Assembly: GCA_910578855.1 (NCBI GenBank)
Contig: CAJTRV010000004.1
Span: 5,551-69,550 of the forward strand
DNA length: 64,000 bases
Reading direction: 5' to 3'
Origin: an uncultured Bacilli bacterium
GTDB taxonomy: Bacteria > Bacillota_I > Bacilli_A > RF39 > UBA660
The notes beneath the pieces are model-generated. The model saw only the letters and a program-made list of their open reading frames with translations, was not told the origin of the DNA and did not search any database. The translations under genes were made by a program, and so were the position numbers. Numbering within the stretch: the first letter of the stretch is position 1; each line of letters starts with the position of its first letter. This document shows positions 21,944-36,606 of this stretch, piece by piece.

Positions 21944-22030
21944 TTCGACATCTCTATATTCCGCTATATTTATGGTACCTAGACCAAAAAGATTTAAAAC
22001 TATTTTTACATCTTCTTAAAGTAAGTATTT

Positions 22031-22059
22031 GAATATTCATCCCCAACATGTTATAATAC
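22031..22059 (+). promoter_or_regulatory. Sigma-A-like promoter TTGAAT-17-TATAAT
   Basis: Sequence ttgaatattcatccccaacatgttataat upstream of the ORF at 22155. Confidence 0.45.
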
Positions 22060-22154
22060 AACCATTCCAAGTCACGCTTTTAAATACCATAAAAAGAAGT
22101 GAGGAAAATATAATATATATATCTTACTATTTATGTATATTATATTACTTTATA

Positions 22155-22907
22155 ATGAAATATAATTTAGACAAAGAGGCGGCGCTATTTATCGATAGAA
22201 TTAATCATGGTTTTTTCTACCAAGATTACCTAAAAAACGGGGCAAAAAGTTATCACGATACCGGAAAAGCAGACCAAGATGTCCAGACGTTCCTTGATTG
22301 TATGCTTTTAGATTTTCCTGATTTATTCGCCCAGGAAACCCCTTATACAATTAATGTCAAATACAGCGAATTATTAGATCCAATTTATTTTGAAACAATG
22401 AAAAATAGATATAAAATGATTCTAGAAGAAATGATAGCTTTCATTGAAAAAGGTAATCATGAAAATAATTTAATTATAAATACCAATCTTTTAAGTCAGG
22501 CTATTTTGGATTACTTTCTTAATATTCAACATTTAAAGAGTATTTATAATGTTTACAATGTTAACACCGATATCATCTATGCTGATACAGCATTCTGGCT
22601 CTTACGAAAGAAGCCTATTCAAGTTATCCCTACTTTGAATCATGATGAAATAACAATTCCAAACCAAAAGGAAGCAATCAATCAATTCCTATTTATCAAT
22701 GAAGAGTTTGTTGCTTTCCAAATGATAAGTAATCTTTTATCAGACTTAGAAATTAATCCATTCTTATTAAAAACGGAAGAAACACATCTTACTGAGTTTT
22801 ATAATCATTTATTATACTATTTTAAAAATTATGATTTCACATCATTCCATTTAGAGTTAATGGTGAAGGGATTTAGATCCGGCTATACATTCGGTAAAAG
22901 AAAATAA
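22155..22907 (+). CDS. Hypothetical protein
   Basis: The track ORF 22029-22907 begins inside the promoter. The in-frame Met at 22155 (MKYNLDKE) was taken as the start. No recognisable domain. Confidence 0.45.
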   Translation: MKYNLDKEAALFIDRINHGFFYQDYLKNGAKSYHDTGKADQDVQTFLDCMLLDFPDLFAQETPYTINVKYSELLDPIYFETMKNRYKMILEEMIAFIEKGNHENNLIINTNLLSQAILDYFLNIQHLKSIYNVYNVNTDIIYADTAFWLLRKKPIQVIPTLNHDEITIPNQKEAINQFLFINEEFVAFQMISNLLSDLEINPFLLKTEETHLTEFYNHLLYYFKNYDFTSFHLELMVKGFRSGYTFGKRK

Positions 22908-23061: not shown

Positions 23062-24021
23062 TTAAGAAATTATCTCATAATCTAACAATTCAATTTGATT
23101 AGATAAATAAGCTGCATCAGAATTGATCTCATCGGCATACGAAGTAGATAAATATTTTTTATTATCATCAGGAAAAACGGTTGCAACTACTCCAGGATAA
23201 TCAGCTTGTTCTAAGACAGCTGCTAAAAAATTAGCACCCGAAGAAATTCCTACGCCAAGTCCAAGTTTGGCTGCTAAGAGCCTTGCCATATTAACTGCAT
23301 CATCATCATTAATTAATCGAACATCATCTAATAATGATTGATCGACTAATTCAGGAATAAAATCATCGCCAATTCCCTCAATTTTATGTTGACCGAGTAT
23401 CGCTCCATTTGTCAGCATTGGCATCTTATCAGGTTCTAAAGCTACAACCCGAATACGAGGGTTATTCTCTTTGAGATAAGAGCCAATCCCCATTAATGTT
23501 CCACCCGTTCCAATCCCTGATACAAAACTCGTAACACCAGGAAGCGATTTATATATCTCTAAAGCGGTACTTTTATAATGGGCCTTTCGATTATCAGAAT
23601 TTGAAAATTGATCAGGTCGATATCCACCAAGTGTTTTCGCTAAGGCATCTGCTTTTGCAATACACCCAGCAAACCCACCTTCTGCTTTAGATACCAGTGT
23701 AAGATGGGCGCCATATCGCTTCATCATAAGTTGTCGTTCTTTGCTACACCAATCTGGCATAAAAATATAAACTGAGTGATGATAACGAGCTCCTAACGCT
23801 GCAATCGATATTCCTGTATTCCCACTCGTTGCTTCGATAATCGGCATACCATCTTTTAACATTCCCGTTTGTTTGGCATTCGTTAATATATAATCGACCA
23901 TTCGGTCTTTAATGCTACCTGATAAATTATAGTACTCTAATTTGGTATAACATGAGCCCATCACTCCTTGATATCGATAGTTTATTTTGATCATTGGGGT
24001 ATTTCCAATTAATGTTGTCAT
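23062..24021 (-). CDS. PLP-dependent cysteine synthase / O-acetylserine sulfhydrylase family protein
   Basis: GNTPM...SGSIKDR (PLP lysine) and SGNTGIS motifs. The start was set to MTTLIGNTPM, which has a GAGGAAA RBS. Confidence 0.8.
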   Translation of the reverse strand: MTTLIGNTPMIKINYRYQGVMGSCYTKLEYYNLSGSIKDRMVDYILTNAKQTGMLKDGMPIIEATSGNTGISIAALGARYHHSVYIFMPDWCSKERQLMMKRYGAHLTLVSKAEGGFAGCIAKADALAKTLGGYRPDQFSNSDNRKAHYKSTALEIYKSLPGVTSFVSGIGTGGTLMGIGSYLKENNPRIRVVALEPDKMPMLTNGAILGQHKIEGIGDDFIPELVDQSLLDDVRLINDDDAVNMARLLAAKLGLGVGISSGANFLAAVLEQADYPGVVATVFPDDNKKYLSTSYADEINSDAAYLSNQIELLDYEIIS

Positions 24022-24092
24022 CTTTTTCCTCACTTTCACATATATTATTATAGCCAATTTTTAAATAATTGCCCTCTTTTTTAGAAATAATG

Positions 24093-24121
24093 TTGCAAAA
24101 TCATCAAACTTATGATATTAT
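24093..24121 (+). promoter_or_regulatory. Promoter TTGCAA-17-TATTAT for the tRNA pair
   Basis: Lies 20 nt upstream of the first tRNA. Confidence 0.5.
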
Positions 24122-24139
24122 TAAATAGCGATGTATCTT

Positions 24140-24216
24140 GGACCTTTAGCTCAGTTGGTTAGAGCATCCGGCTCATAACCGGACGGTCGATGGTTCGAGT
24201 CCATCAAGGTCCACCA
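24140..24216 (+). tRNA. tRNA with anticodon CAU; the GGACC... acceptor stem suggests tRNA-Ile2 (lysidine) rather than elongator Met
   Basis: 77 nt cloverleaf. Acceptor GGACCTT/AAGGTCC. Anticodon loop CTCATAA. Encoded CCA. Confidence 0.8.
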
Positions 24217-24222
24217 TTACTT

Positions 24223-24307
24223 GCGAGTGTGGCGAAATTGGCAGACGCACTAGACTTAGGATCTAGCGCCTTATGGCATGGGGGTTCAAGTCCCTTCACT
24301 CGCACCA
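24223..24307 (+). tRNA. tRNA-Leu (anticodon UAG)
   Basis: 85 nt. Acceptor GCGAGTG/CACTCGC. Anticodon loop CTTAGGA. Long variable arm. Encoded CCA. Confidence 0.8.
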
Positions 24308-24672
24308 TCGATGAATCTGTTCGAACTATTCGAACTTCATATATAAATATCAACTCAATTTGGGTTGATTTTTTCGTTATATGGAAAATCATCCTACTAA
24401 GAAAAGCTAGTGTCTATGATAAACATTATTAAGCAAGAAATAACTTTTGATGAATCTTTAAAATAAAAATTAGAGTTTATCTATAGTTTTTGCAATACTA
24501 CATCTACTATTTATAATGAATTTATCATATTTCTTCATTATTCTTATCTCCAATGATATCATACTAAGATGTATCACAAGGGTAAATTTTTCATTAAAAA
24601 ACGTCTATACCCAAAACTGCACCAGCGTATTTTGACCAAGTTACTTTAAATTCACTTTGGACTACTTTTAGA

Positions 24673-25110
24673 TTAGCAGTAAATTTTATAGTCTTTACTT
24701 GGAACATATTTTAAGAAATTTCTAATTAAACGTACAATACATCTTTGTACAATAACACCTTTAAAGATTCCTTTTGCACCATCCTCAATACCACTGACTT
24801 CATCCATAGAAATAAAGAATATGTCTTCAACACCACGAGTTTTTATCTCATCAAATATTTGCACCCAAGAATGCTTCGATTCTGTCTCATTTAACCAGAT
24901 ACCAGTGAGATCCCTATGACTATCATCATATCCAAGTATTATATAAACAGCACTTTCCGTACGTTCAGATTCATAACACATCATAACATACACATTTCAC
25001 CCTGTAGCATCACCTCAAACATAGGAACAAATACATCTTTTAATACATCCGGCACTTCTTTAGTAGTTTCTGGTTGATAAACACCTAACATTGATTGAAA
25101 TAGCTCATTT
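24673..25110 (-). pseudogene. IS256-family (mutator-type) transposase remnant, truncated at both ends and frameshifted
   Basis: AVYIILGYDDSHRDLTGIWLNETESKHSWVQIFDEIKTRGVEDIFFISMDEVSGIEDGAK...CIVRLIRNFLKYV matches the IS256 Tnp core. An upstream out-of-frame segment NELFQSMLGVYQPETTKEVPDVLKD continues the homology. Confidence 0.6.
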
Positions 25111-25210
25111 TACTTCTCATACTTTTACCTCTTTCATTTATTTTATCACACTATAAAAGTGCGTAGCTTTTACTAGACTACACACTTTATTTTACGCACT
25201 CTCGACTTAA

Positions 25211-25558
25211 TTATAATTTGATGCTAATATTTTTAGTTGCTCCCTGATTACCAGTTGCAAATACTTTTATACTTTCTGGATCTGTTAAAAAGTACATGTT
25301 GTAAACTACTTTTTCCCTTATTAATTGTAACCATTTATTATCATCATCAACCATAGATCTACCAAACCTTGAAATTAGAACTAAATCGTCACCAATTTCA
25401 GTTATGTTTCTTTTTATTGTATCAACGTCATTGTGAATAAATCCACATGCATCTGAACAAGCTAAAAGATAATCTAGCGCCTGAAAATCTTCTAAACTTT
25501 GAAGTCGATTCCAAAGCCTACCACTTTTTAAAGTCGTCAAACTTGCTAAACTTATCAA
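25211..25558 (-). CDS. Hypothetical ORF, probably a gene fragment (TTG start in track)
   Basis: The frame stays open ~60 nt upstream of the called start. No recognisable domain. Confidence 0.3.
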   Translation of the reverse strand: MISLASLTTLKSGRLWNRLQSLEDFQALDYLLACSDACGFIHNDVDTIKRNITEIGDDLVLISRFGRSMVDDDNKWLQLIREKVVYNMYFLTDPESIKVFATGNQGATKNISIKL

Positions 25559-25645
25559 TAGATGTTCATCAATCCCTAACTCTTGTAAGATAAATGTCGT
25601 CAGTATTGATATATAATATCTCTAAAGTTTAAAAATAACTAAAAA

Positions 25646-26650
25646 TTATAATAGCGTTTTTAATACTAAGTCAATTAAAAAAGAGATCGTTTTAGATTTT
25701 CCATAAAATTGATAAAAAAAGTTTCTAATATAGGTATTATAAATTAAGAATTTTGATATTCTATGATTAAAAATTATAAATCTATCCTTCCACATTCGAA
25801 CTTTATAAAACCAATTCATTGATTTTGATAAATTATAAGAAGATGATACAGCATAATAAATTCCCTCACCACTTACTGGAGAAATAAGACCTGCGGCATC
25901 TCCTACAAAAAATATATCCCCTTTTCTCAGAAAAATATTATTCCCTGTTGGCAAAAAGGCTCCCCTCATAGGAATATCATTCTTTAAATAAAAATGATTT
26001 AAAAATATATTTTGAATATCCGTATTTTGAGAAACATCTCCCAACCCCCTCAAATTAGTTTTATTATTTGAAATAGTCCAAGCATATCCTTTGAAATGAT
26101 TAAAAAAATCTATTTGAATTATTTCGTTTTTTATGGCATTTTCACTTTCAATAGCAAAATTCATTTTCTGACGTTTACCTGTCAAATCATTTCTTACTTT
26201 ACTAAAAACCCCGTCTGCCCCAACTAAATGATTATATTTAAAAGCTTTCTCAGAAGTATATATAATTTTATTTTTAAAATCTATTTTTTCATAACTAGTG
26301 TTATCAATAACTTTCCCACCACATTGTTTAAACTGATTAACTACAAAATCGTCCAAATCTTTTCTATCTATTGTATATATCGAATGCATCTTTATTTCTT
26401 TTGTAATTCCATTATTATTAACCTTAAAAGTATCAAATTTTTTAAAATCTATTTTTGCAAGTTCTGTTCCATATATTTTAAATAAAAGTTTATATGCCTT
26501 CGTTGTAACGATCCCCCCACATAATTTGTTTTTCTTTTTTAAATCTTGACTTTCAACAATCATTACAGTTTGTTTTTTATTTAGAAGAAGATTACCCAAA
26601 GTGCATCCTGCTAATCCCGCTCCTATTATTATAGTATCAAAATACTCCAT
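25646..26650 (-). CDS. FAD-dependent oxidoreductase, geranylgeranyl-reductase-like family
   Basis: IIGAGLAGC (GxGxxG), CGGIV and GDAAGLISPVSGEGI motifs. The gene is extremely AT-rich. Confidence 0.65.
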   Translation of the reverse strand: MEYFDTIIIGAGLAGCTLGNLLLNKKQTVMIVESQDLKKKNKLCGGIVTTKAYKLLFKIYGTELAKIDFKKFDTFKVNNNGITKEIKMHSIYTIDRKDLDDFVVNQFKQCGGKVIDNTSYEKIDFKNKIIYTSEKAFKYNHLVGADGVFSKVRNDLTGKRQKMNFAIESENAIKNEIIQIDFFNHFKGYAWTISNNKTNLRGLGDVSQNTDIQNIFLNHFYLKNDIPMRGAFLPTGNNIFLRKGDIFFVGDAAGLISPVSGEGIYYAVSSSYNLSKSMNWFYKVRMWKDRFIIFNHRISKFLIYNTYIRNFFYQFYGKSKTISFLIDLVLKTLL

Positions 26651-26894
26651 TTTAACCTCCGATATTTAAATTTTTCCTTTTGATAATTATACCATTTTTT
26701 ATAAATTTATAATAGAATACTAAAATCTTTTTATATGCTTTTTATTTAACCAAAAGTTACATAATTATAATCGATATCGTAAATATAGTATTAAATCAAT
26801 ATAGCTCCATCTTATCCTATTGTATACAACTCTATCTAATTACCGATCCCTGTCCCCTAACCTCATCAAAAATACACGTTATTCATAAAAAATA

Positions 26895-26903
26895 TGCTAT
26901 AAT
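26895..26903 (+). promoter_or_regulatory. Extended -10 (TGcTATAAT) upstream of the WYL regulator
   Basis: About 35 nt upstream of the GGAGGTG RBS and TTG start. Confidence 0.3.
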
Positions 26904-26937
26904 AGTTATAATCATTTTAACCATTGGAGGTGTTGGA

Positions 26938-27537
26938 TTGTCAAAGATATCAAATGTTATAACAATGCTTAATCTTCTAGCAACTGGTAAAAAATATGGC
27001 ATTAAAGAACTCGCTAATCTGCTAGAAGTATCACCAAGAATGATTAGAATATATAAAGAAGAGTTAGAAAAAGCAGGAATCTATATTGATTCTATTATGG
27101 GACCATATGGAGGATATGTCTTAAATCAAACAATTAGAATTCCAAAACGTAAATTTAAACAAGAAGATTATCTATTACTCGATCAACTACTAACGAATCA
27201 TATTTCTAATCTAGAAAAAGAAAAACTAGAACTATTAAAAGATAAAATTAGAGGTATCTACATTGGAAGTACCCAAGAAAGAGTCGAATTAAATTTGGAC
27301 GATTACAATTTAAAAAAATATAATATTTTAACACGAGCCATTAAAGAAAGACAAAAAGTAAATACCTTATATTATTCTTATAACAAAGGTGAACATGAAA
27401 GAGTAATCTGTCCAGCTGAAATGTTTTTATTTAAAGATGGCTGGTATTGTGCCGCCTATTGCACCCTTAAACACGATATGAGACACTTTGAATTAAAACG
27501 AATTAGAAATATAGAACTTTTAGATGATAAATTTTAG
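26938..27537 (+). CDS. HTH + WYL-domain transcriptional regulator
   Basis: N-terminal DeoR-type HTH (YGIKELANLLEVSPRMIRIY). C-terminal WYL region (LFKDGWYCAAYCTLKHDMRHFELKRI). TTG start with a GGAGGTG RBS. Confidence 0.75.
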   Translation: MSKISNVITMLNLLATGKKYGIKELANLLEVSPRMIRIYKEELEKAGIYIDSIMGPYGGYVLNQTIRIPKRKFKQEDYLLLDQLLTNHISNLEKEKLELLKDKIRGIYIGSTQERVELNLDDYNLKKYNILTRAIKERQKVNTLYYSYNKGEHERVICPAEMFLFKDGWYCAAYCTLKHDMRHFELKRIRNIELLDDKF

Positions 27538-27549
27538 AGTAGACCATAT

Positions 27550-27592
27550 ATTACCTCCTTACGTGATAAGATTCATGTAGGAGGTAATTTTA
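27550..27592 (+). terminator. Terminator-like hairpin whose 3' arm is the SD of the next gene
   Basis: 10-bp perfect stem ATTACCTCCT / AGGAGGTAAT, 19-nt loop, then TTTTAATT and an ATG at 27596. Confidence 0.5.
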
Positions 27593-27595
27593 ATT

Positions 27596-28510
27596 ATGAA
27601 AGACAATATGAATGATAATTTTTCTAAATTACAAGCAAGAGTCTTCGATTCTATAGGCAAAACAGATTTACTAGCAATACGAAATATTTTATCTACAATA
27701 AAGGACCCTACACTGGTAAGTGGGGTCGGTGGTTCATCCGTAGTGAGTTTATTTTTATCCAAAGTATTAAGTGCTAAAAATAATATTATATGTGAAGATG
27801 TGACCCCAAGAGACTTAAATTATAAAAATTTACAAGGTTTTAAAAATATCATCGTCTGTAGTTATGGAGGGCTTAACTATGGTGTTACAACAGCCTTTAA
27901 TCATGATTTAACAAAATATTTATTGGCTAGGAACACCAAAGACGAAATCATCAATCTTCAATATCAAAACGATGATCTAGAAAAAAGTTTTATTTCACTG
28001 GCGGCAACTTTAATCCCAATGACTATTTCCTTGATGTATTATTTGGACAATGATCCTACGATTATCTATGAAATTTTGAATTCATCACCTCAGTTTGATT
28101 TTATCGATCATGATATCTATGAAATATTGACTGGATACGAAACGAGCACAGCCGCAAGATTCATGGAATCAACCCTAGTCGAAGCAGGGCTTGCAATTCC
28201 TATCCTCCACGATAAATATGACTATTGTCATGGAAGAACAACATTAGGCTTTCAACAAGATCATGGTTTACTATTCTTTAATAATCATAATGAGTTAGAC
28301 CAACTATATAGCGAGATACTAAATCATGCCTATCACAACATCATCACAATCGATCGAAAATATGATGATCATATTATTAACGATTATTATTTTACCTATA
28401 TAAGTATGCTATTATGTAAGAAAATTGCCGAACAAAAAGGAAAAGATTTATCAAATGTAAGTTATTCGCCACTCGTCAAAAAACTATATTTTTATAAAGG
28501 AGAAATGTAA
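27596..28510 (+). CDS. Hypothetical protein with an N-terminal SIS-like (sugar isomerase/phosphosugar-binding) fold
   Basis: LVSGVGGSSVVSLFLSKVL resembles the SIS GxGxS nucleotide/sugar-phosphate loop. The remainder is unassigned. Confidence 0.4.
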   Translation: MKDNMNDNFSKLQARVFDSIGKTDLLAIRNILSTIKDPTLVSGVGGSSVVSLFLSKVLSAKNNIICEDVTPRDLNYKNLQGFKNIIVCSYGGLNYGVTTAFNHDLTKYLLARNTKDEIINLQYQNDDLEKSFISLAATLIPMTISLMYYLDNDPTIIYEILNSSPQFDFIDHDIYEILTGYETSTAARFMESTLVEAGLAIPILHDKYDYCHGRTTLGFQQDHGLLFFNNHNELDQLYSEILNHAYHNIITIDRKYDDHIINDYYFTYISMLLCKKIAEQKGKDLSNVSYSPLVKKLYFYKGEM

Positions 28511-28523
28511 AAAAAGTCTACAA

Positions 28524-29480
28524 TTAAATAGACTTTTTGATTTCATTCTTCTCAGGATAGATCGCAAATAAAACAATTTCCGTTGGAAAAATATTACTAC
28601 CATAAAATCTTAAATAAAATTCATATCCGGGACAAATCTCCTCGATCATTTTAGGAATTTTCCACAAATCCTCATGGTTATGGTAAACAGATAGTAATAA
28701 TTTAGGATGATCTTCTACAATATGTCGCCGACACCCTAATAATGCTTTCGTCTCTGCCCCTTCAATATCCATTTTCACCATTGTAATTGGTTCACTAATA
28801 TCATCATCCAAGGTTACCGTTTCGACAAATGTATTCCCATTGTCTACTAACACATTGGCAGAAGCATTGACCCTATTCGTATCCATCGAGACAACTTCTT
28901 GTCGATCAGTCACAGCTTTTTTACGACATACAATATTGGGATAATCTTTGACATTTGTTTGGAGATTTAAAAATGTCTCATCCGTCATTTCGTAACAATA
29001 AATTTTTTGATAAGCATCCAAGCCATAACTATGAATAAAGTCTAAGGTCGAATCACCAATATAAGCTCCAACATCAACCAATATTTCTTGATCACAAGTC
29101 ACAATATCTAAATCAAAATAGTGACAATAAGTTTGATCCATTAACTCCTTTAAAGTTGTAAAATCGTAATCATACCAATTATATAATATAGCAAATAATA
29201 ATTTTTTTGAACGATAATCTTTTAAGTGTTGATATAACCAGCGATAATCATCAATATGATCATGAAGTGATTCTGCTTTATTATGAATCTCTTCATATAC
29301 TTTCTTCTGATCATCTAATACACCCCAATAAGGAAAATCAGATAAGAATTGTTCCATTGACTGTTTCACTGCTAGTGGAAGTAGCTGGTACTTCTTCTTG
29401 ATATGTTCAAATACTTCTATCTTCGTTTTTCCTTTTATTTCCGAAGTTAACCATTCAAAATTGCGATCCACATAATTCAT
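28524..29480 (-). CDS. FkbM-family methyltransferase
   Basis: VDVGAYIGDST...MVKMDIEGAE signature. Confidence 0.7.
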   Translation of the reverse strand: MNYVDRNFEWLTSEIKGKTKIEVFEHIKKKYQLLPLAVKQSMEQFLSDFPYWGVLDDQKKVYEEIHNKAESLHDHIDDYRWLYQHLKDYRSKKLLFAILYNWYDYDFTTLKELMDQTYCHYFDLDIVTCDQEILVDVGAYIGDSTLDFIHSYGLDAYQKIYCYEMTDETFLNLQTNVKDYPNIVCRKKAVTDRQEVVSMDTNRVNASANVLVDNGNTFVETVTLDDDISEPITMVKMDIEGAETKALLGCRRHIVEDHPKLLLSVYHNHEDLWKIPKMIEEICPGYEFYLRFYGSNIFPTEIVLFAIYPEKNEIKKSI

Positions 29481-29586
29481 CTTCTCACATCCTATTTCTT
29501 TACATCATATTCTAAACTTGAAAAATGATACCAATAATTGATTAAAGAATCGGAAACGTCCATAAATAATATTATGAACGTTTTTT

Positions 29587-30819
29587 TTATTCATTAAAAA
29601 TTCCTTTTAACATATTGGATACCGCAACAAAAATAGCTGATATTCGATACCAAGTAGCAAAGTTAACAATTCCTGTAACTGGTAGATTAAAAACACGTTG
29701 AAATACCTTTACGGCCTCGATCGTATCTGGGCCATATATTCCATTGGCCTTTTGAATGGAAGGAATAGCAGGATAACTCCCTCTAATTTTATTCAATGCA
29801 TTTTGTAATAGTTGAACTTCTTCACCACATGCCCCTTCTGTCAAATTATAACCTGGAAACGAAGTTGGCAACCCTGGGACAATTTCAGCTGTAACAAGCT
29901 CGATGGTATTTCCATAATAATAACGAACAATTTGTAGAGAATTATAACCTTGGTCCCCTAGTGACTTAGACCCCCACTGACTAAGCCAACCTTCTCGCAC
30001 TACATTAATTCCATCACTATATTGGGCAAAAAAAGGATAAGAACGTCCAGGAAATTTTAAATATTCCATAAATACTTCATCGACTACATTAGATATGGTA
30101 TCAAAAATTGTTCGATTATGAGAATATTTTTGATCATATGCAGTCGAAGAGGTAATCGTAAAATTATACCCTTTAGAGTAATACCATTCCGTATAGACCC
30201 GATTTAAAGTAAATGATACAATCGCATGGACATTGGCCTTTAGTGTTTCTCTAGGCCAACTAGGATAAATTTCTGACGATGTGACATTCTTGATATAATC
30301 TGAAAATGATACATAATAATTTGGAGCATAAGTATCCGTAGGAATTCCATCATGAACAATAATATATTCGGGAATGACAACCCGGGGTAATACCTTAGAT
30401 TCCAATGATCCTATCTCTGGATGTTCAACAATTTTGGGAACTTCATTGTCCCATATCGTTGGTGGTGGGACAATTGTTGTTATCTTTCCTGATCCCCCTG
30501 TTGTTGTACTGAGATATACATCCTGAATCGATGTAATACCAGCATAAACTTGAACCCCGAGAACGGTTCCGGTTCCAAGGCCATCTTTGGTTACGGTAAC
30601 ATTATACGTCTCCCAAGGTTGAACTATCGTCTGTGGTTCTAAAGAGTATTCGATATTAGGTGCTTCAAGAGCAATCGCCTCCGTCCTTCCAGATTCATCA
30701 GTAACAACATTAATATTGGTATTATTTCCACTAATATTCACTCTGGCCCCCATTAATGGTTGCGCAACATTATCTACAAACACATTCACAACCAAATGTC
30801 CAATTGCCATAACACTCAA
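29587..30819 (-). CDS. Cell-wall hydrolase-like protein with a C-terminal peptidoglycan-binding domain (SleC/cortex-lytic-like)
   Basis: C-terminal PG_binding_1 (GEEVQLLQNALN...GIYGPDTIEAVKVFQ). N-terminal carboxypeptidase-regulatory-like region. Confidence 0.45.
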   Translation of the reverse strand: MSVMAIGHLVVNVFVDNVAQPLMGARVNISGNNTNINVVTDESGRTEAIALEAPNIEYSLEPQTIVQPWETYNVTVTKDGLGTGTVLGVQVYAGITSIQDVYLSTTTGGSGKITTIVPPPTIWDNEVPKIVEHPEIGSLESKVLPRVVIPEYIIVHDGIPTDTYAPNYYVSFSDYIKNVTSSEIYPSWPRETLKANVHAIVSFTLNRVYTEWYYSKGYNFTITSSTAYDQKYSHNRTIFDTISNVVDEVFMEYLKFPGRSYPFFAQYSDGINVVREGWLSQWGSKSLGDQGYNSLQIVRYYYGNTIELVTAEIVPGLPTSFPGYNLTEGACGEEVQLLQNALNKIRGSYPAIPSIQKANGIYGPDTIEAVKVFQRVFNLPVTGIVNFATWYRISAIFVAVSNMLKGIFNE

Positions 30820-30928
30820 ATCCTTTCTTTCTATAATTCAATATATGTTTTTTAACAACTAATATCATTAAAAGACAACATTTTTCATCTTTCTAATATA
30901 ATACAAGTAATAGAGATGGGGTTATAAA

Positions 30929-31942
30929 ATGAATGATAACAAAAAATACTTTGTTCACCAAGAAACGGTTTCATCACTAGAAAATATGTATTTTAATGAT
31001 GTAATTACGATGATTCAACATCAACTTAAAACATTAGGTTATTATGATGTCAGCATTACCGGTAGCTACGACCACAATACCAAAACAGCAATCAAAAATT
31101 TTCAGACAGATCACCATTTAAAAAACGATGGTACGCTCAATGATCAAACCTGGGATACACTTTACTCTAACAGAAATAATTTAGAGCGCCAAGTAGCGGA
31201 ACGCCAAACAAGACCGGTTCTTAGACTCGGTAGTACTGGCCCATATGTAACGGAGTTACAAACAATTTTAAAAAATCTTCTTTACTATACTGGTACCATT
31301 GATGGTAATTTCGGAAATACTACTGCTCTCGCAGTCAAAACATTTCAGACGAATAATCACTTAACACCAGATGGTGTTGTCGGTCGAGATACTTGGAGTG
31401 CCCTTTCGACGCTATATTCACCACTGGCTATCTGTGATGACAACGAAAATGGAAATGGGAATAATCCAATTTCTTATACAGTGGTGGCCGGGGACTCCTT
31501 ATGGAGTATTGCCAAACGATTTAATACTACCGTTGAGGCAATTAAACAATTAAATCAATTAACGAGTGATGTTATTTATGTTGGTCAGCAACTTCTCATC
31601 CCGAGCGGCAATGATAATGGAACACCGCCAACTTATACCCTATATACGGTGGTAGCTGGTGATTCTCTATGGAATATTGCCAAACGATTTAATACCACCG
31701 TTGAAGAGATTAAAAGCCTCAATAATCTGACAAGTAACCTATTAACTATCGGTCAACAATTAAAGATCCCATCAGATACTTCAAATGTCATCACCTATAC
31801 AGTAATTGCTGGGGATACATTATGGAAAATAGCTCAAAAATTTAATACTACTGTAAATACATTAAAAAGCTTTAACAATCTTACCAATGACACTTTAAAT
31901 ATTGGTCAGCAATTAAGAATCCCAATCAATCGTAACGAATAA
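30929..31942 (+). CDS. Protein with two peptidoglycan-binding domains and three LysM domains
   Basis: 2x PG_binding_1 (LKNDG/LTPDG, TWDTL/TWSAL). 3x LysM (YTVVAGDSLWSIAKRFNTTV...). Confidence 0.75.
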   Translation: MNDNKKYFVHQETVSSLENMYFNDVITMIQHQLKTLGYYDVSITGSYDHNTKTAIKNFQTDHHLKNDGTLNDQTWDTLYSNRNNLERQVAERQTRPVLRLGSTGPYVTELQTILKNLLYYTGTIDGNFGNTTALAVKTFQTNNHLTPDGVVGRDTWSALSTLYSPLAICDDNENGNGNNPISYTVVAGDSLWSIAKRFNTTVEAIKQLNQLTSDVIYVGQQLLIPSGNDNGTPPTYTLYTVVAGDSLWNIAKRFNTTVEEIKSLNNLTSNLLTIGQQLKIPSDTSNVITYTVIAGDTLWKIAQKFNTTVNTLKSFNNLTNDTLNIGQQLRIPINRNE

Positions 31943-31973
31943 AAAATACCATCGAAATGGTATTTTTTGTTTC

Positions 31974-32942
31974 TTATATAATTAATCGTTGGCCTGGATA
32001 AATTCTATTGGGATTATCTCCAATCGTTGCTTTATTCTTATTATAAATAGTCTGCCATGTCGTCCCAAATTGTTTGGCAATTTTAGATAAATTATCGCCT
32101 TTTTTTACAATATAAACAGTTGGTTCAACTGCAGTAGATGGCAAGATTAGTACTTGACCTGGATAGATTAGATTGGGATTTTTAATATGATTCAATGCTA
32201 CTAATGTCGCAACAGTTGTTTGGTACCTACTTGCAATCGTCGATAAGTTATCACCAGCTTTTACGACATATGTTTTCTGATTAGTTGGTGGTTCATCTGG
32301 ATCAGTTGGTTCTGTTGATTCATCTAGGTGGTTTAATCCTCGTTCTTTTATGATCATAGGATAATCTAGATAAGCAATATCACGATCGACTCGACCATTA
32401 ATTCCGGAAATACTTCCATCACTCGTATACTGCCACATACCAAATGGTTTATCATAAGTAGGAAGATTACTCCATTGTGCCAACCACTTATCATAGCGAT
32501 CTAATTTAGGTGAATTTAATTTTGATTGAAAAAAGGCTTTGCTCGAATATATTCCTACATAGTATCCAGCCTGCTCTATTTTATCACAAAATGTTTGACA
32601 CATTTTTACCAGCATTTCATTACTATTTTGGTCGGTATAAGAGTTAGCCTCAATATCATAATAAATCGGATATTCTAGTCGGTAATTCTTAGCCAATCGT
32701 AAAGCATGATCTGCTTCACTACTCGCTTCAGCTGTTCCCCTGGCGTAACTAAATAAATAGATTCCAAAGGGAATCCCTAACCGAGTACATTCTGAAGCAT
32801 TACGGTGGAACTTTGTATCATCTTGACTAGTACGATCAACACCATAACCACATCTTAAAATAGCAAAATCAACTTGATCTTTAACTTTTTCCCAATCGAT
32901 ATCACCTTGGTAATAAGAAACATCAATTCCTTGCTTTTCCAT
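31974..32942 (-). CDS. GH25 muramidase with two C-terminal LysM domains
   Basis: [11 protein letters not shown]25 N-terminus. 2x LysM. AAAGGAG RBS before MEKQGI. Confidence 0.8.
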
Positions 32943-33025
32943 ATACAACTCCTTTCGTTATTATAGTATACGAATGAAATAATATAAGAGTAAGGAAGTC
33001 AAACTAAAAAAGAAGGAATAACCTT

Positions 33026-33445
33026 CTATTTTTGAATCATGTTTAATAAATTGATTTTAAAAATGTCTTTTTCCGCATGTTCTTTCGAAACCATAACACC
33101 CTTGTAAGTAACCAATTCCGATTGATGACCTTCTGCTAAAATATCTTCCGGTGTAATCGTATCTAACATAATAATATGATCTGCTTCATAAACGTGATAA
33201 TGTAATTTAATATCACCATGGACTTTAGAAAACATGGAATCCGTTGGCAATTTTAATTCATAAGTTACAGTTCCTTTGCTTTGATTGGTAGAAACAATTT
33301 CTCCTAGAAAAATACCAGTTTTTAGTTTTGGATAAAATTCGAAATATAATTTTTTATAGGCTAACATATTATACTTTTTTAAAGAACGTTCAAGCTTCTT
33401 AAATTCATTTTCATTGACATAGTCAAATACGTAAGCACCCTTCAT
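33026..33445 (-). CDS. Hypothetical protein
   Basis: 139 aa. No confident domain assignment. Confidence 0.45.
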   Translation of the reverse strand: MKGAYVFDYVNENEFKKLERSLKKYNMLAYKKLYFEFYPKLKTGIFLGEIVSTNQSKGTVTYELKLPTDSMFSKVHGDIKLHYHVYEADHIIMLDTITPEDILAEGHQSELVTYKGVMVSKEHAEKDIFKINLLNMIQK

Positions 33446-33565
33446 TATATTTCACCTTCCCCATGCATCTACTATTTTCTATCGTACTTAAATGATAACA
33501 TGATTACTGGTTTTTGTCAAACAAAAAAAGGAAAGATTCCTTTCCTTTAGAAACTTGAATAACAA

Positions 33566-35239
33566 CTATCGTGACATTCCACCAGTAGATGCTTCTACTT
33601 GAACAGGAGTGCCATCAGATAAATACCAGTTACCATCAGCACCCATAATCAAGTCACTATAATAAACTTCCTCAGTCGTCGTTGTAGTAGTTGCACTATT
33701 ACTATTTTCATTTGGTTGCGACTGTCCACCATTATTTGGAAGCACATTACCACTATCGAAACCTGGATAATAGTTGTCTTGTGTATCTTGATTATTATCT
33801 ATAACATTATCGTCCTCAGGTGGCGTTATGTTATTTTTAACAGAATTATATCCTAACATATAATTAGAATCACTTGATTGTGGTGGCAACCCTGCAAGTG
33901 CATCATTTGCCCCACGTTGAACTAATTGTTCAACTGTTTCTTTATTTGACTGTTGATTGTTTTCATCATGAAAACCGGTATCCACTTCTTGACCTTTATG
34001 TTCATTATAATCAGCTACACCTGCATTAATCGTCGTTTTTCCAGTCTTTGGATCAGTTCGCAAATTTTTATAATCCTCCGCTGTCATCTGACTACCTTTT
34101 TGTTTTTTCATTGCTTCTGTATATTCATGTGAATCACTTGCTTGCGAAGCAATTTCACTAGCATTTTTCTTATTTTCAACTTTTACTTTACTAATTTCAA
34201 TCGCGATTTCTTTTAAAGATTTACCACCATCAGACTTTGATTCATCAGTTGCTTTTTCAATTTCAATCATCTCAGTAATATTTTCTAATATTGATGTGAA
34301 AGCACTGGAATAACTAGAATGATTTTCTTCAATAAAATCCGTATTTTCTGTTCTTTCAGCACATGCTTTATCGAGATGATCAATGAAAGTATTTCGAACA
34401 GTTTGATTAATATCCTTATAGCTATGAAAATACTGAGCGTAACTTGTTGCAACGAACATAGCCATTTCACTATAACCAGCTGATCCATTTTGAATTTTAT
34501 CTAAGGTCTTTACCAATTCATCACGATTTTCATTACTTCGTTCTGTATTCAATTTTTGATACAATGCTTGTAACTCATTTAACATCTTCGCATCATATTT
34601 TTTCGGAAATATACTAGACCAATCCACTTTGAATTGATTAGTCATCAACCCAGTATTCAATGATTGTCTATATTCCTCAAGGTATTTCAACGCATCCGCT
34701 CTATTAGATACAAACTCAGAAATATTTAATGATTTAATTCTAGCATCAGTTTTTGCTTCAAAACCAGCTAATATTGAATAAAATGCTAACTTATCATTAG
34801 AAAACCGTCCCTCTTCTAACAATCCATTTTCACCTAATAACTTCTTAATACTAATTCCTTGATCAATTAGCGTTTGGTCTGCTAAAGCATTACGGCTCCA
34901 ATAATCCTCATCAAACAAAACAATATTATTTTTATCTGAACCTGGTTCTTTATCTTTACTATCATTTCCACAACCAGTCAAGGAAACCGCAATTGCTCCA
35001 ATTAGTCCCACTGGAACTAGTATTTTTACAAGTACTCCATACTTTTCTTTAATTTTACTGACAATATTTTCCCGAACACCCTGTTGCTTTTTATAGTCCT
35101 TCACAATTTTATTAATTTTAGTTAATGCTCCATTCGAAAAATCATTTAGTTCAAGTTTCGAAAAGGCTTCCAACACATTTTCCCCGCGATCGAGTGTTCG
35201 TTGTAAAGCTGCAATTATGGACATTTCATATGCATTCAT
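33566..35239 (-). CDS. Membrane-anchored protein with a Q/N/D-rich C-terminus
   Basis: Internal TM helix plus a lipobox-like LTGC. Low-complexity tail. Confidence 0.5.
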   Translation of the reverse strand: MNAYEMSIIAALQRTLDRGENVLEAFSKLELNDFSNGALTKINKIVKDYKKQQGVRENIVSKIKEKYGVLVKILVPVGLIGAIAVSLTGCGNDSKDKEPGSDKNNIVLFDEDYWSRNALADQTLIDQGISIKKLLGENGLLEEGRFSNDKLAFYSILAGFEAKTDARIKSLNISEFVSNRADALKYLEEYRQSLNTGLMTNQFKVDWSSIFPKKYDAKMLNELQALYQKLNTERSNENRDELVKTLDKIQNGSAGYSEMAMFVATSYAQYFHSYKDINQTVRNTFIDHLDKACAERTENTDFIEENHSSYSSAFTSILENITEMIEIEKATDESKSDGGKSLKEIAIEISKVKVENKKNASEIASQASDSHEYTEAMKKQKGSQMTAEDYKNLRTDPKTGKTTINAGVADYNEHKGQEVDTGFHDENNQQSNKETVEQLVQRGANDALAGLPPQSSDSNYMLGYNSVKNNITPPEDDNVIDNNQDTQDNYYPGFDSGNVLPNNGGQSQPNENSNSATTTTTTEEVYYSDLIMGADGNWYLSDGTPVQVEASTGGMSR

Positions 35240-35253
35240 CTAAACCCCTCCTT

Positions 35254-36606
35254 CTATTTTTCTTTCTTCTCGCCGGTCCATTCATAACCGTCGTTGATTA
35301 AATTTTTATCGTCACACTTGCTCCATTTTTCATCACGCCATCCGCTCTTAATAGATCGTGTTCGGTAACGATAATACTTTGTATTAACAGGAACTTTGAC
35401 CGTTCCATAAATTGGTTCGGTTGTTTTTTCGACCCGTTGTGATGTACCATAATCTACAATCACCTTAATGGTTGTATAAACAGGTGTTGACTTCGTCTCC
35501 CATTTTGTACATACCGTTTGCGTTTTAGTAACTTCGTACTTTTGACATGTTTTTTGAGCCCATATCTGATATTCTCCAAAAGAACAATTACCACAATGCT
35601 CTGGGACATCTGAAATCCAATACCAATACTCAGTATCACTAAAAGTTAACTCGTCTCTACTTCCAACCTTTTTTCTAACCCCTGTATCAGTAAATTTTGT
35701 ATATTTATACTCACCAGTTCCCACTTCCTGAGTTTTCGTTGCTGTACATACTTTTTTCTGTTCAGTACCAATTTGAATTTGTTTATCACCATAAATTGGC
35801 TTATTTTTATCTTTATATGTAATGGTCTTGGTGATAATTCGTTCTCCAATTTTAACCGTCTCATTTTTATAAGTAACTTCGTTTTTCGTTTCAACATCAG
35901 TTAAATCATCTTCATACTTTGGTGATGTTGACCAGCTTGACCAGTTACCCCAATCAGTATAGGAAGCCTTTACCGTCTTAACATACTTACAAATAAATTC
36001 TTTTTGACCTGGTGTTGGCGTTGGTTTTGGTTTATTTGTCGGAGTTGGTGTCGGTTTTGGTTTACTAGTTGGCGTTGGTGTTTTACTAGGCTTACTGGTT
36101 GGTGCTGGAGTTGCCTTTGATGGTAAGATCGCTGGTGTTTTCACATCCTTTTCATCTTTTTCACAGATGGTCGTCTTACAATAATCATAACATCCCATGT
36201 AAACTAATAAATAATTTTCTTGTTCAGTACATTTCAAGTTGACCTTCATGATATACTCTTCATCCATCTTCGTAATTTCTACATAAGAAGCCGTATTATC
36301 ACATGATCTTCCTTTACTATCGGTAAATGGTAACACAATTTTCTTGTCTAACATTTCACCTAATGTCATCGACACTTTATCCCCAACTTTTTGTGGCAAT
36401 CGCGGCGTCGTATAATAACTCTTTGCTGAATCTTTCATCATTAAAATGTTTTCATTAAAGATTCGATCATATAAAGGTGTTAACGCATCCTTTACAAATT
36501 GTTTTGATGGAAATAAATAAATTAAAATAAATACAAACAGTACTACAAATAAAATCTGTAATACAATATCCTTAATTGAAAAACTATCTTTACGTTCTTG
36601 ATACAT
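35254..36606 (-). CDS. Membrane protein with a Pro/Thr-rich linker and a Cys-rich ectodomain
   Basis: The start was set to MYQERK, which has a GGGGGAG RBS. Single TM helix. PTPTSKPKPTPTPTNKPKPTPTP linker. Confidence 0.5.
   Translation of the reverse strand: MYQERKDSFSIKDIVLQILFVVLFVFILIYLFPSKQFVKDALTPLYDRIFNENILMMKDSAKSYYTTPRLPQKVGDKVSMTLGEMLDKKIVLPFTDSKGRSCDNTASYVEITKMDEEYIMKVNLKCTEQENYLLVYMGCYDYCKTTICEKDEKDVKTPAILPSKATPAPTSKPSKTPTPTSKPKPTPTPTNKPKPTPTPGQKEFICKYVKTVKASYTDWGNWSSWSTSPKYEDDLTDVETKNEVTYKNETVKIGERIITKTITYKDKNKPIYGDKQIQIGTEQKKVCTATKTQEVGTGEYKYTKFTDTGVRKKVGSRDELTFSDTEYWYWISDVPEHCGNCSFGEYQIWAQKTCQKYEVTKTQTVCTKWETKSTPVYTTIKVIVDYGTSQRVEKTTEPIYGTVKVPVNTKYYRYRTRSIKSGWRDEKWSKCDDKNLINDGYEWTGEKKEK
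35990..36115. repeat. Degenerate tandem ~24-nt repeats encoding the (PTPTxKPK) linker
   Basis: Repeated ggtgttggcgttggttttggttt-type units. Confidence 0.55.

What the first reader, a model, noticed from the sequence alone, without database searches (positions are those of the whole stretch)
24308..29586. AT-rich accessory island immediately 3' of the tRNA(CAU)-tRNA-Leu pair, marked by an IS256 transposase remnant
Directly after the tRNA-Leu 3' end come, in order: an IS256-family transposase fragment, an orphan gene fragment, a very AT-rich GGR-like flavoprotein, a WYL regulator, a SIS-like unknown protein and an FkbM methyltransferase. tRNA 3' ends are classical integration sites, so this gene set looks horizontally acquired. 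I could not find a direct repeat of the tRNA 3' end by eye.
Basis: partly seen in the sequence, partly recalled or inferred. Interest (0 to 1): 0.55.

Follow-up and report, generated by a model that had tools for sequence, protein, structure and literature searches.

The report
Patchwork region beside a tRNA pair
The stretch after the tRNA-Leu gene is not one imported island: it is a rearrangement-prone slot that mixes about 1.3 kb of dead mobile-DNA debris with genes that are ordinary, conserved residents of this gut Bacilli lineage.

Summary
The gene list is correct. After tRNA(CAU)/tRNA-Leu(UAG) come an IS256 transposase remnant, a 5'-truncated gene, a GGR-family flavoprotein, an HTH-WYL regulator, a double-SIS-fold protein and an FkbM methyltransferase.

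The reading as one tRNA-integrated, horizontally acquired island does not hold:
- There is no integrase and no repeat of the tRNA 3' end.
- All same-species contigs recovered (found through a slot gene or the right-flank gene) carry the identical arrangement.
- AT-richness is mild: 29.1% GC against 33.6%, the 9.5th percentile of same-size windows.
- WYL plus double-SIS is a strictly conserved two-gene operon across the clade. In one relative it directly follows the same tRNA pair.
- FkbM is also clade-wide.
- The first ~75 nt after the tRNA are its native trailer hairpin and terminator.

Part of the idea survives. The interval between tRNA-Leu and a conserved 139-aa gene is a variable slot. 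It measures 67 bp to 1.7 kb in some relatives, 8.7 kb here and 9.9 kb in another, and other relatives in a second tRNA/139-aa gene configuration carry further fillers. Fillers include a Mob relaxase remnant and a restriction enzyme. Window 24380-25600 holds three pseudogenes.

This is an ordinary hotspot with decayed debris and of low interest. The uncharacterised WYL/double-SIS operon is the only mildly novel item.

The parts
24140..24216 (+). tRNA with anticodon CAU, called Met by ARAGORN. It could be tRNA-Ile2; this was not tested.
24223..24307 (+). tRNA-Leu(UAG). It is the left anchor of the variable slot.
   Evidence: Homology with L038, L013 and L050 stops at or within a few nt of its 3' end in L038 and L013.
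24319..24335 (+). Native tRNA-trailer hairpin GTTCGAA-CTA-TTCGAAC. It is not foreign DNA.
   Evidence: A hairpin occupies the same position in L050, L051, L052, L056, L064 and L067. There are two compensatory pair changes: G-C to A-U and U-A to C-G in the ACTCGAA...TTCGAGT version (fold).
24349..24375 (+). Intrinsic terminator of the tRNA operon: a 9-bp stem followed by a T-run.
   Evidence: Relatives have equivalent terminators of different sequence at the same distance.
24380..24526 (+). Pseudogene, with an in-frame stop, of a 59-80-aa small-ORF family. The family lies right after the tRNA-Leu terminator in L056 and L064 and beside the 179-aa gene in L048.
   Evidence: tblastn 53% identity over 45 aa, E = 1e-10; reading of the sequence
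24676..25106 (-). IS256-family transposase pseudogene. Residues 12-49 are fused out of frame to residues 176-282 of a 430-aa reference, so it has an internal deletion and lacks the C-terminal third.
   Evidence: It is absent from L048, where the flanking homology is 268 bp apart instead of 743 bp.
25211..25591 (-). 5'-truncated member of a ~180-aa family of unknown function. About 52 N-terminal residues are missing and a stop codon lies upstream.
   Evidence: A full-length 179-aa copy in L048 is 78% identical at the nucleotide level.
25646..26650 (-). Intact FAD-dependent oxidoreductase of the geranylgeranyl-reductase superfamily. It is the most AT-rich gene of the segment and sits at different chromosomal places in relatives.
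26893..26903 (+). Conserved extended -10 promoter element TATGCTATAAT of the WYL operon.
   Evidence: The same element lies upstream of WYL in L038 and, minus the first base (ATGCTATAAT), in L036. Homology with L038 resumes at ~26882.
26938..27537 (+). wHTH-WYL transcription regulator, 199 aa, with no room for a C-terminal WCX domain. It is the first gene of a clade-conserved two-gene operon.
27596..28510 (+). Divergent double-SIS-fold protein, a probable phosphosugar-binding or isomerase-type enzyme. It is the second gene of the operon.
   Evidence: Invariant GxGGS loop and HDKYxxCHGR motif.
28524..29480 (-). FkbM-family SAM-dependent methyltransferase. The family is clade-wide and sits at other loci in relatives.
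29587..32948 (.). Cell-wall gene trio that also lies inside the tRNA-Leu/139-aa-gene slot: SpoIID-like/PG_binding_1 (-), LysM/PG_binding_1 (+) and GH25-LysM (-).
   Evidence: The first two genes are inverted relative to L013.
33026..33445 (-). Conserved 139-aa gene. It is the right anchor of the slot and lies 67 bp from tRNA-Leu in L053 and L054.

Best explanation
The segment is a mosaic inside a rearrangement-prone slot, not a discrete integrated element. The slot lies between tRNA-Leu(UAG) and a conserved 139-aa gene (window 24308-33025).

**Layers, from the tRNA outward**
1. 24308-24375: the native trailer hairpin and intrinsic terminator of the tRNA operon.
2. 24380-25600: a graveyard of three pseudogenes.
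   - A small ORF with an in-frame stop.
   - An IS256 transposase with an internal deletion and a 3' truncation.
   - A 5'-truncated ~180-aa gene.
   - These record an old IS256 insertion followed by deletions.
3. 25646-26650: an intact GGR-superfamily flavoprotein gene. Its family is patchy and sits at different sites in relatives, so its origin (relocated or transferred within the clade) is unresolved.
4. 26882-28510: the lineage's own WYL-regulator + double-SIS operon, with its conserved promoter. Its linkage to this tRNA pair is also seen in relative L038.
5. 28524-29480: a clade-wide FkbM-type methyltransferase gene, followed by a cell-wall gene trio.

**Inferred mechanism (not shown)**
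- Repeated local inversions and translocations with breakpoints at tRNA genes, plus at least one IS256 transposition and later deletions, brought resident genes together here.
- Nothing in the segment can move today.
- The genes are probably expressed as independent units: GGR alone, WYL with SIS, and FkbM alone.
For: **Shown**
- Gene identities.
- No att repeat and no recombinase.
- Arrangement and sequence are identical (>=99.3%) in all same-species contigs recovered, from several independent samples.
- WYL-SIS is a fixed pair in L009, L036, L038 and L040, lying among housekeeping genes.
- In L038 the order is tRNA-Met, tRNA-Leu, a 675-bp spacer, then WYL-SIS.
- DNA homology between the window and L038 breaks at 24308 and resumes at ~26882.
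- The promoter element is conserved.
- FkbM homologues lie among core metabolic genes.
- The distance from tRNA-Leu to the 139-aa gene is 67 bp (L053, L054), 538 bp (L058, L061), 1.1 kb (L059) and 1.7 kb (L065). It is 8.7 kb here and 9.9 kb, with different genes, in L013.
- Trailer hairpin with compensatory changes, and terminator.
- Anatomy of the IS256 remnant and its absence from L048.
- Truncation of the ~180-aa gene.
- GGR, WYL and (in three of four relatives) SIS genes are 1-4 GC points below their neighbourhood in relatives as well.

**Established background**
- Many gene-turnover hotspots lack integrases or recognisable mobile elements (PMC5635113, read).
Against: - The nearest genomes available are distant: 55-80% amino-acid identity in flanking core genes. 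No empty-site strain or sister species could be examined, so the order and age of events are inferred.
- GGR and WYL are more AT-shifted against their surroundings here (-7 and -5 points) than in relatives (-1 to -4).
- GGR is 72% identical to the L070 copy, while the nearby core gene TruB is only 51% identical. This is compatible with GGR having been transferred within the clade.
- The small ORF and the ~180-aa gene recur next to mobile-element debris. In L064 one copy of the small ORF abuts a truncated Mob_Pre relaxase. They may therefore be remains of an element that did use this tRNA.
Confidence: 0.65

Rival explanations
1. One reading: the whole of 24308-29586 is one horizontally acquired island that integrated site-specifically into the 3' end of tRNA-Leu. 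It has since lost its integrase and att repeat.
For: - It sits immediately 3' of a tRNA.
- It contains an IS remnant.
- Its GC is below average.
- Relatives carry other cargo at the same position, including a Mob_Pre remnant, a restriction endonuclease and an AAA_21 ATPase.
Against: - No recombinase or recombinase pseudogene, and no repeat of the tRNA end.
- The first 75 nt are the native trailer and terminator.
- WYL-SIS and FkbM are clade-wide families with divergence similar to the flanking core genes. WYL is 68-75% and SIS 55-68% identical, against cysS 61-67% and the SpoIID-like gene 73-78%.
- WYL-SIS follows the same tRNA pair in L038.
- No strain polymorphism.
- 29586 is not a synteny boundary.
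Confidence: 0.05
2. Reduced island: only about 24380-26880 is the decayed remainder of a small element that once integrated next to tRNA-Leu. This comprises the small-ORF pseudogene, the IS256 remnant, the truncated ~180-aa gene and GGR. It pushed the native WYL-SIS operon 2.6 kb away from the tRNA.
For: - Homology with L038 is interrupted exactly over 24308-26882.
- All three non-GGR genes are pseudogenes.
- The small-ORF family recurs at the tRNA-Leu-proximal position in L056 and L064, in L064 beside a truncated Mob relaxase.
- L048 carries the trailer, small ORF and 179-aa gene next to a GNAT gene instead of the tRNA. That is what a distal att junction would look like.
- GGR is the most AT-shifted gene and shows an identity excess over TruB.
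Against: - No integrase remnant and no repeat.
- L038 is distant and has its own unrelated 633-bp filler, so the 'insertion' is really a non-homologous replacement.
- GGR lies 2.8 kb from TruB in L070 and 6.5 kb from TruB here. It may therefore be an old resident of this neighbourhood.
- The ~180-aa family has no hit in phage, plasmid or viral collections.
Confidence: 0.25
3. Functional-cluster model: GGR, WYL, double-SIS and FkbM form one co-selected module under WYL control, for example a sugar or isoprenoid modification pathway or a defence system.
For: - Adjacency here, with divergent GGR/WYL promoters sharing a 287-bp intergenic region.
- WYL regulators often control neighbouring defence or stress genes (PMC9122601, PMC9122588, PMC11662680; listed). 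The WYL protein matches PADLOC's CRISPR-associated WYL model at E = 1.5e-29.
- In L042 a GGR homologue lies 2 kb from a paralogous WYL operon.
Against: - In L009, L036, L038 and L040 the WYL-SIS pair has neither GGR nor FkbM nearby.
- FkbM homologues sit alone among housekeeping genes.
- GGR homologues sit in three further unrelated contexts.
- No PADLOC hit for GGR, SIS or FkbM.
Confidence: 0.05

Closest known systems
Integrase-less gene-turnover hotspots flanked by core genes or tRNAs (Oliveira et al. 2017, PMC5635113)
   Same: - One chromosomal interval is bounded by conserved anchors (tRNA-Leu and the 139-aa gene).
- Its content differs between related genomes.
- It contains an IS remnant and, in relatives, defence or mobility genes.
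- It has no integrase.
   Different: - Hotspots in that work are defined within species from many genomes. Here the variation is seen only between distant species, and the species itself looks fixed.
- Much of the content is clade-core genes moved by rearrangement rather than imported genes.
Classical tRNA-integrated genomic islands, prophages and integrative elements
   Same: Position immediately 3' of a tRNA gene, and somewhat lower GC.
   Different: - No tyrosine or serine recombinase.
- No direct repeat of the tRNA 3' end.
- No presence/absence polymorphism.
- The native trailer and terminator are intact between the tRNA and the first gene.
- Half of the genes are lineage-conserved.
IS256-family insertion sequences
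   Same: The central DDE-transposase region is 62% identical to an Enterococcus faecium IS256-family transposase.
   Different: - Only residues 12-49 and 176-282 of ~430 remain.
- They are in two frames.
- No ends could be identified.
- It is non-functional.
wHTH-WYL-WCX regulators of defence systems (BrxR, CapW)
   Same: An N-terminal winged HTH plus a WYL domain, encoded directly upstream of the gene it presumably controls.
   Different: - It is 199 aa and ends right after the WYL domain, so it has no WCX domain.
- Its partner is a double-SIS-fold protein, not a known defence system.
- It is conserved as a housekeeping-like operon rather than in defence islands.
Double-SIS phosphosugar enzymes (GlmS isomerase domain, NagB-II, AgaS, FrlB; Lmo0035, PDB 2aml)
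   Same: - Predicted fold matches with TM ~0.7 and Foldseek E down to 2e-11.
- A conserved glycine-rich GxGGS loop; that it corresponds to the SIS phosphate-binding site rests on my own knowledge and was not tested.
   Different: - 10-15% sequence identity.
- No Pfam or NCBIfam SIS hit.
- A family-specific invariant HDKYxxCHGR motif.
- Substrate unknown.

Membership tests
tRNA-integrated genomic island / integrative element | Site-specific recombinase (integrase) gene inside or at the edge of the island | tested here: not met
   - Pfam and NCBIfam on all ORFs from 24308 to 33025 find none.
- tblastn with a prophage integrase and with the window's own Xer-like protein hits only 40752-41648.
tRNA-integrated genomic island / integrative element | Direct repeat of the tRNA 3' end (attL/attR) bounding the island | tested here: not met
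   25-mer and 15-mer searches with 2-3 mismatches find only the tRNA itself. The repeat scan of 24100-36000 finds nothing beyond chance.
tRNA-integrated genomic island / integrative element | Presence/absence among strains or close relatives with a precise empty site | tested here: not met
   - All same-species contigs that reach the region have the identical order.
- Distant relatives differ, but the breakpoints are 24308 with ~26882 or 33025, not 24308 with 29586.
tRNA-integrated genomic island / integrative element | Composition or codon usage foreign to the host | tested here: inconclusive
   - 29.1% against 33.6% GC, the 9.5th percentile.
- Per-gene synonymous-codon scores lie within the range of the window's other genes.
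- GGR, WYL and (in three of four relatives) SIS are AT-shifted in relatives too.
IS256-family insertion sequence (intact) | Full-length DDE transposase (~400-430 aa) | tested here: not met
   Only residues 12-49 and 176-282 align, in different frames. The NCBIfam score of 88.9 is below the cutoff of 150.
IS256-family insertion sequence (intact) | Terminal inverted repeats and a target-site duplication | not tested
   - No intact related copy from this lineage was available to define the ends.
- The window-specific stretch relative to L048 is only 743 bp.
wHTH-WYL-WCX regulators (BrxR/CapW type) | N-terminal winged HTH plus WYL domain | tested here: met
   HTH_11 at residues 10-60 and WYL at residues 129-193. 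PADLOC WYL model at E = 1.5e-29.
wHTH-WYL-WCX regulators (BrxR/CapW type) | C-terminal WCX dimerisation domain, and adjacency to a defence system | tested here: not met
   - The protein ends 6 residues after the WYL domain, at 199 aa.
- The neighbours have no PADLOC hit.
SIS-domain phosphosugar isomerase/deaminase superfamily | Tandem SIS alpha/beta fold | tested here: met
   AlphaFold2 model with pLDDT 90.7 and pTM 0.92. Foldseek top hits are 2aml, the GlmS isomerase domain, NagB-II and FrlB, with TM 0.6-0.75.
SIS-domain phosphosugar isomerase/deaminase superfamily | Match to the sequence profile, and conserved catalytic residues | tested here: inconclusive
   - No Pfam or NCBIfam hit at E <= 0.01.
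- A conserved GxGGS loop is present.
- Catalytic residues were not mapped.
FkbM-family methyltransferase | Match to TIGR01444 / PF05050 above the curated cutoff | tested here: met
   TIGR01444 scores 60.1 bits against 37.7. PF05050 scores 30.1 against 22.7.
Geranylgeranyl reductase family (TIGR02032) | Score above the family cutoff | tested here: not met
   - 129 bits against a cutoff of 158.8.
- FAD_binding_3 is above its cutoff (48 against 22).
- It is therefore a flavoprotein of that superfamily, but a GGR assignment is not secured.

The most novel reading that the evidence does not exclude
The HTH-WYL + divergent double-SIS pair is an uncharacterised, lineage-wide sensor/enzyme operon of small-genome gut Bacilli.
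- It has 862 homologue clusters and fixed ~57-bp spacing in the contexts read.
- It has no Pfam family and carries an invariant HDKYxxCHGR motif.
- It is placed directly 3' of tRNA genes in 5 of 6 contexts read.

One possibility is a nucleotide- or phosphosugar-responsive switch linked to tRNA-operon transcription. Its recurrent tRNA adjacency may be functional rather than accidental.
Probability: 0.2. Interest if true: 0.45.

Novelty: new member of a known kind. Interest (0 to 1): 0.2.

Why it matters
It matters mainly as a caution. Position next to a tRNA, an IS fragment and a dip in GC were not enough to call an acquired island. Comparison with relatives showed that half of the 'island' is conserved lineage genes and that the tRNA's own trailer and terminator are intact.

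On the positive side, the work does three things:
- It defines a real variable slot (tRNA-Leu to a conserved 139-aa gene) in an uncultured, small-genome Bacilli clade from animal guts.
- It documents how IS256 decay and local rearrangements shape such genomes.
- It flags a conserved WYL/double-SIS operon of unknown function that could be tested experimentally.

Tried and rejected
- **att repeat.** Searched for a repeat of the tRNA-Leu 3' end (25-mer and 15-mer with mismatches, plus a general repeat scan) and found none. The perfectly conserved 20-mer next to the tRNA looked at first like an element end. It turned out to be the native trailer hairpin, present with compensatory changes in many relatives.
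- **Structured RNA.** An Rfam scan of 23900-30000 found only the two tRNAs.
- **Defence-system reading.** PADLOC hits only the WYL protein.
- **Phage or plasmid origin.** For the ~180-aa family, the viral-contig scan and tblastn against phage and plasmid collections gave no hits. For GGR, only the viral-contig scan was run, and it found nothing.
- **N-terminal half of the truncated gene.** A tblastn alignment appeared to extend into the GGR 3' end. On inspection it was a weak extension through stop codons. True homology starts at 25591.
- **Repeat in L064.** I looked for a repeat bounding the Mob-remnant filler and found none.
- **Exact-protein look-up of the 331-aa cysK ORF.** This failed because the called gene uses a later start.
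- **Closer relatives.** The one genome-collection scan returned relatives at only 73-78% identity for the anchor protein, so no sister-species empty site could be examined.

Full report
**1. What is there**

ARAGORN and Rfam place a tRNA with anticodon CAU at 24140-24216 and tRNA-Leu(UAG) at 24223-24307, both on the + strand.
- **IS256-family transposase fragment**, 24673-24993(-). It covers only positions 137-232 of the 338-position NCBIfam model.
- **115-aa ORF** with no family hit, 25211-25558(-).
- **FAD-dependent oxidoreductase** of the geranylgeranyl-reductase superfamily, 25646-26650(-). TIGR02032 scores 129 bits, below its cutoff of 158.8.
- **HTH-WYL protein**, 199 aa, 26938-27537(+).
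- **304-aa protein** with no Pfam or NCBIfam hit, 27596-28510(+).
- **FkbM methyltransferase**, 28524-29480(-).

An AlphaFold2 model built on 43 homologues has pLDDT 90.7 and pTM 0.92. It matches double-SIS enzymes (Lmo0035/2aml, the GlmS isomerase domain, NagB-II, FrlB) with TM about 0.7 at 10-15% identity.

**2. Composition**

The genome is low-GC, at 33.6% over the window. The segment is 29.1% GC, and 9.5% of equally long windows are as low or lower.
- By gene, GGR (26.2% GC, GC3 18%) and WYL (28.0%) are low.
- SIS-like (31.4%) and FkbM (31.9%) are ordinary against a gene mean of 33.3% with sd 4.9. Synonymous-codon scores lie within the range of the window's other genes.
- In relatives, the GGR, WYL and (in three of four relatives) SIS genes are also 1-4 points below their own neighbourhoods. 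The shift is therefore largely a property of these gene families.
- A much stronger AT-rich block lies at 55-62 kb (21-27% GC). It carries RhuM, KilA-N, Bro-N and DUF6870 genes.

**3. Tests of the integration model**

- No copy of the tRNA-Leu 3' end exists elsewhere in the window, even with 2-3 mismatches. The repeat scan shows only chance-level matches.
- No recombinase gene or pseudogene lies between the tRNA and 33025. The only Phage_integrase-type gene in the window is a 298-aa Xer-like gene at 40752-41648.
- The first ~75 nt after the tRNA are a 7-bp hairpin (24319-24335) and an intrinsic terminator (24349-24375).
  - Relatives have a hairpin and a terminator at the same positions.
  - The hairpin shows two compensatory pair changes: GTTCGAA/TTCGAAC here against ACTCGAA/TTCGAGT in L051, L052 and L067.
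  - This is therefore the native tRNA-operon trailer, not an element end.

**4. Same species**

Exact-protein look-ups with the GGR protein and the right-flank SpoIID-like protein returned 17 and 13 contigs. They come from independent metagenomes (at least one labelled mouse gut) and one NCBI MAG (GCA_022792275.1). Every contig long enough shows the same gene order. Nucleotide identity is 99.3-100% in slot and flanks alike. No presence/absence polymorphism was seen.

**5. Related genomes**

The nearest species representatives are distant, at 73-78% identity for the SpoIID-like protein. The comparison gave four results.

*WYL-SIS is a native operon.*
- The 304-aa protein has 862 homologue clusters, almost all about 304 aa long.
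- In all four other contexts read (L009, L036, L038/L039, L040/L041) it is preceded by the 199-aa WYL gene with about 57 bp between them. The pair sits among housekeeping genes such as rpsO, Ham1, cysS and TruB.
- In L038 the order is tRNA-Met, tRNA-Leu, a 675-bp spacer, WYL, SIS.
- DNA homology between the window and L038 stops at 24308 and resumes at about 26882. That point is just upstream of a shared TATGCTATAAT promoter element, which is also present in L036 minus its first base (ATGCTATAAT).
- WYL and SIS identities to relatives (68-75% and 55-68%) are in the same range as cysS (61-67%) and the SpoIID-like gene (73-78%). This is what vertical descent predicts.

*FkbM is also clade-wide.* It has 1176 homologue clusters at 51-68% identity. 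In L046 and L047 it lies among GAPDH, pyruvate kinase, TIM/PGK, rpsD and ychF.

*GGR is patchier.* About 26 clusters are at or above 58% identity. The gene sits in three different contexts:
- next to a paralogous tRNA-Thr/WYL operon in L042;
- near a toxin-antitoxin pair in L044;
- 2.8 kb from TruB and beside a prophage in L070.

GGR is 72% identical between the window and L070 while TruB is only 51% identical. Within-clade transfer therefore remains possible.

*The real anchors of the variable interval are tRNA-Leu and a conserved 139-aa gene (window 33026-33445).*
- A metagenome scan with the tRNA-Leu(UAG) sequence returned 20 loci.
- In those with the cysS...tRNA...139-aa-gene arrangement, the gap between tRNA-Leu and the 139-aa gene is 67 bp (L053, L054), 538 bp (L058, L061), 1.1 kb (L059) or 1.7 kb (L065). 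It is 8.7 kb in the window.
- In L013 the gap is 9.9 kb. It holds a histidine phosphatase, an AAA_21 ATPase, an ECF sigma factor and hypothetical genes, followed by the same cell-wall gene pair in inverted orientation.
- Other fillers 3' of tRNA-Leu include a truncated Mob_Pre relaxase with DUF1835/DUF3658 (L064), an MvaI/BcnI restriction endonuclease (L066) and a GNAT (L067).
- The position is therefore a variable slot. Its right edge is not at 29586.

**6. The debris next to the tRNA (24380-25600)**

- **Small-ORF pseudogene, 24380-24526(+).** It has an in-frame stop and belongs to a 59-80-aa family. That family lies directly after the tRNA-Leu terminator in L056 and L064 and beside the 179-aa gene in L048.
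- **IS256 remnant.** Residues 12-49 (25106-24993) are joined out of frame to residues 176-282 (24993-24676) of a 430-aa Enterococcus IS256-family transposase. About 126 internal residues and the C-terminal third are missing.
- **The 115-aa 'orphan'.** It corresponds to residues ~53-175 of a ~180-aa family. A stop codon lies upstream, and true homology starts at 25591.
- **Comparison with L048.** This 1.6-kb contig from a closer relative (78% nucleotide identity) carries the full-length 179-aa gene, an intact 59-aa ORF and the trailer sequence. Only 268 bp lie where the window has 743 bp containing the IS256 remnant. The IS therefore inserted in the window's lineage and then decayed.
- **An open point.** In L048 the trailer abuts a GNAT gene instead of the tRNA. 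This could be a distal att-like junction or just another rearrangement. The contig is too short to tell.

**7. Interpretation**

The segment is a mosaic with five layers:
- the native tRNA trailer;
- 1.2-1.3 kb of pseudogenised debris from at least one IS256 insertion and later deletions;
- one intact GGR-superfamily gene of unresolved origin;
- the lineage's own WYL/double-SIS operon with its promoter;
- a lineage-wide FkbM gene, followed by cell-wall genes.

It lies in an interval that has been repeatedly remodelled in this clade. This matches integrase-less gene-turnover hotspots (PMC5635113, read) better than a tRNA-integrated island. Three steps are inferred rather than shown: the order of events, the role of tRNA genes as rearrangement breakpoints, and whether GGR was relocated or imported.

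**8. Function**

- **WYL protein.** It has a winged HTH and a WYL domain but no room for the WCX domain of BrxR/CapW-type regulators. Its partner is not a known defence gene (literature listed).
- **Most likely role (inference).** It is a ligand-responsive regulator of its own two-gene operon.
- **Double-SIS protein.** It is a probable phosphosugar-binding or -converting enzyme. It has an invariant GxGGS loop and an HDKYxxCHGR motif.
- **GGR and FkbM.** They show no conserved linkage to the WYL-SIS pair, so a single functional cluster is unlikely.

**9. Verdict**

- The interpretation as one acquired island is not supported. The weaker claim of a variable, debris-bearing slot 3' of tRNA-Leu is supported.
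- This is an ordinary phenomenon and of low interest. The conserved WYL/double-SIS operon, and its recurrent placement just 3' of tRNA genes (5 of 6 contexts), is the only mildly novel lead.

Noticed in passing
window 55000-62100: This block is much more AT-rich than the finding (GC 21-27%, GC3 10-16%). It carries RhuM (55928-56953), DUF6870 (57697-58044), KilA-N (58057-58899) and Bro-N (60718-61263) genes. It is a far better candidate for phage- or mobile-element-derived DNA.
   Followed up: partly
window 22029-22907 (+): A 292-aa ORF with no family hit and 28% GC lies on the minority strand between cysS and cysK. In L013 cysS and cysK are adjacent, so this is another lineage-specific insertion just left of the tRNA pair.
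   Followed up: partly
L009 3205-3950; L036 9089-9943; L038 8497-9943; L042 11104-11955; window 24140-27537: WYL-regulator operons sit directly 3' of tRNA genes in 5 of 6 contexts read: tRNA-Ala twice, tRNA-Met/Leu twice, and tRNA-Thr for a 42%-identical paralogue with different downstream genes. Only L040 lacks a tRNA. This is unexplained.
   Followed up: partly
L038 8870-9160: The spacer between tRNA-Leu and WYL in L038 folds very stably (z = -6.2 on + and -7.0 on -), with a ~27-bp closing helix. On the minus strand it has a GGAGG site followed by a 27-residue hydrophobic ORF (MSKKDFLISSLILIILLLIALLFTFVI). It looks like a type I toxin mRNA. There is no Rfam hit. A 54-nt partial match lies just after tRNA-Leu in L013.
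   Followed up: partly
L064 (oriented) 2646-5958; L066 4291-5874; L013 3302-8900: Other fillers 3' of tRNA-Leu(UAG) in relatives:
- a truncated Mob_Pre relaxase plus a DUF1835/DUF3658 protein, with two copies of the small ORF (L064);
- an MvaI/BcnI restriction endonuclease (L066);
- an AAA_21 ATPase plus an ECF sigma factor (L013).

   Followed up: partly
L070 267-8899: A GGR homologue (72% identity) lies 2.8 kb from TruB and next to a prophage-like region with an integrase. TruB itself is only 51% identical to the window's TruB. This discordance is compatible with GGR moving between clade members.
   Followed up: no
window 29587-31942 versus L013 8901-11221: The divergent cell-wall gene pair (SpoIID-like/PG_binding and LysM/PG_binding) is inverted in place relative to L013 and L009. 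In L013 the neighbouring GH25 gene has choline-binding repeats instead of LysM.
   Followed up: no
L020, L021 and L022 contig ends, equivalent to window ~24680-24810: Three short-read (Logan) contigs of the same species end inside the IS256 remnant. This probably reflects related IS copies elsewhere in those metagenomes breaking the assembly, rather than strain variation.
   Followed up: no
window 24140-24216: From my own recollection of Bacillus tRNA-Ile2 sequences, the tRNA(CAU) has a G1-C72 acceptor end and a CUCAUAA anticodon loop. It may therefore be the lysidine-modified tRNA-Ile2 rather than elongator tRNA-Met. ARAGORN calls it Met. Not tested.
   Followed up: no
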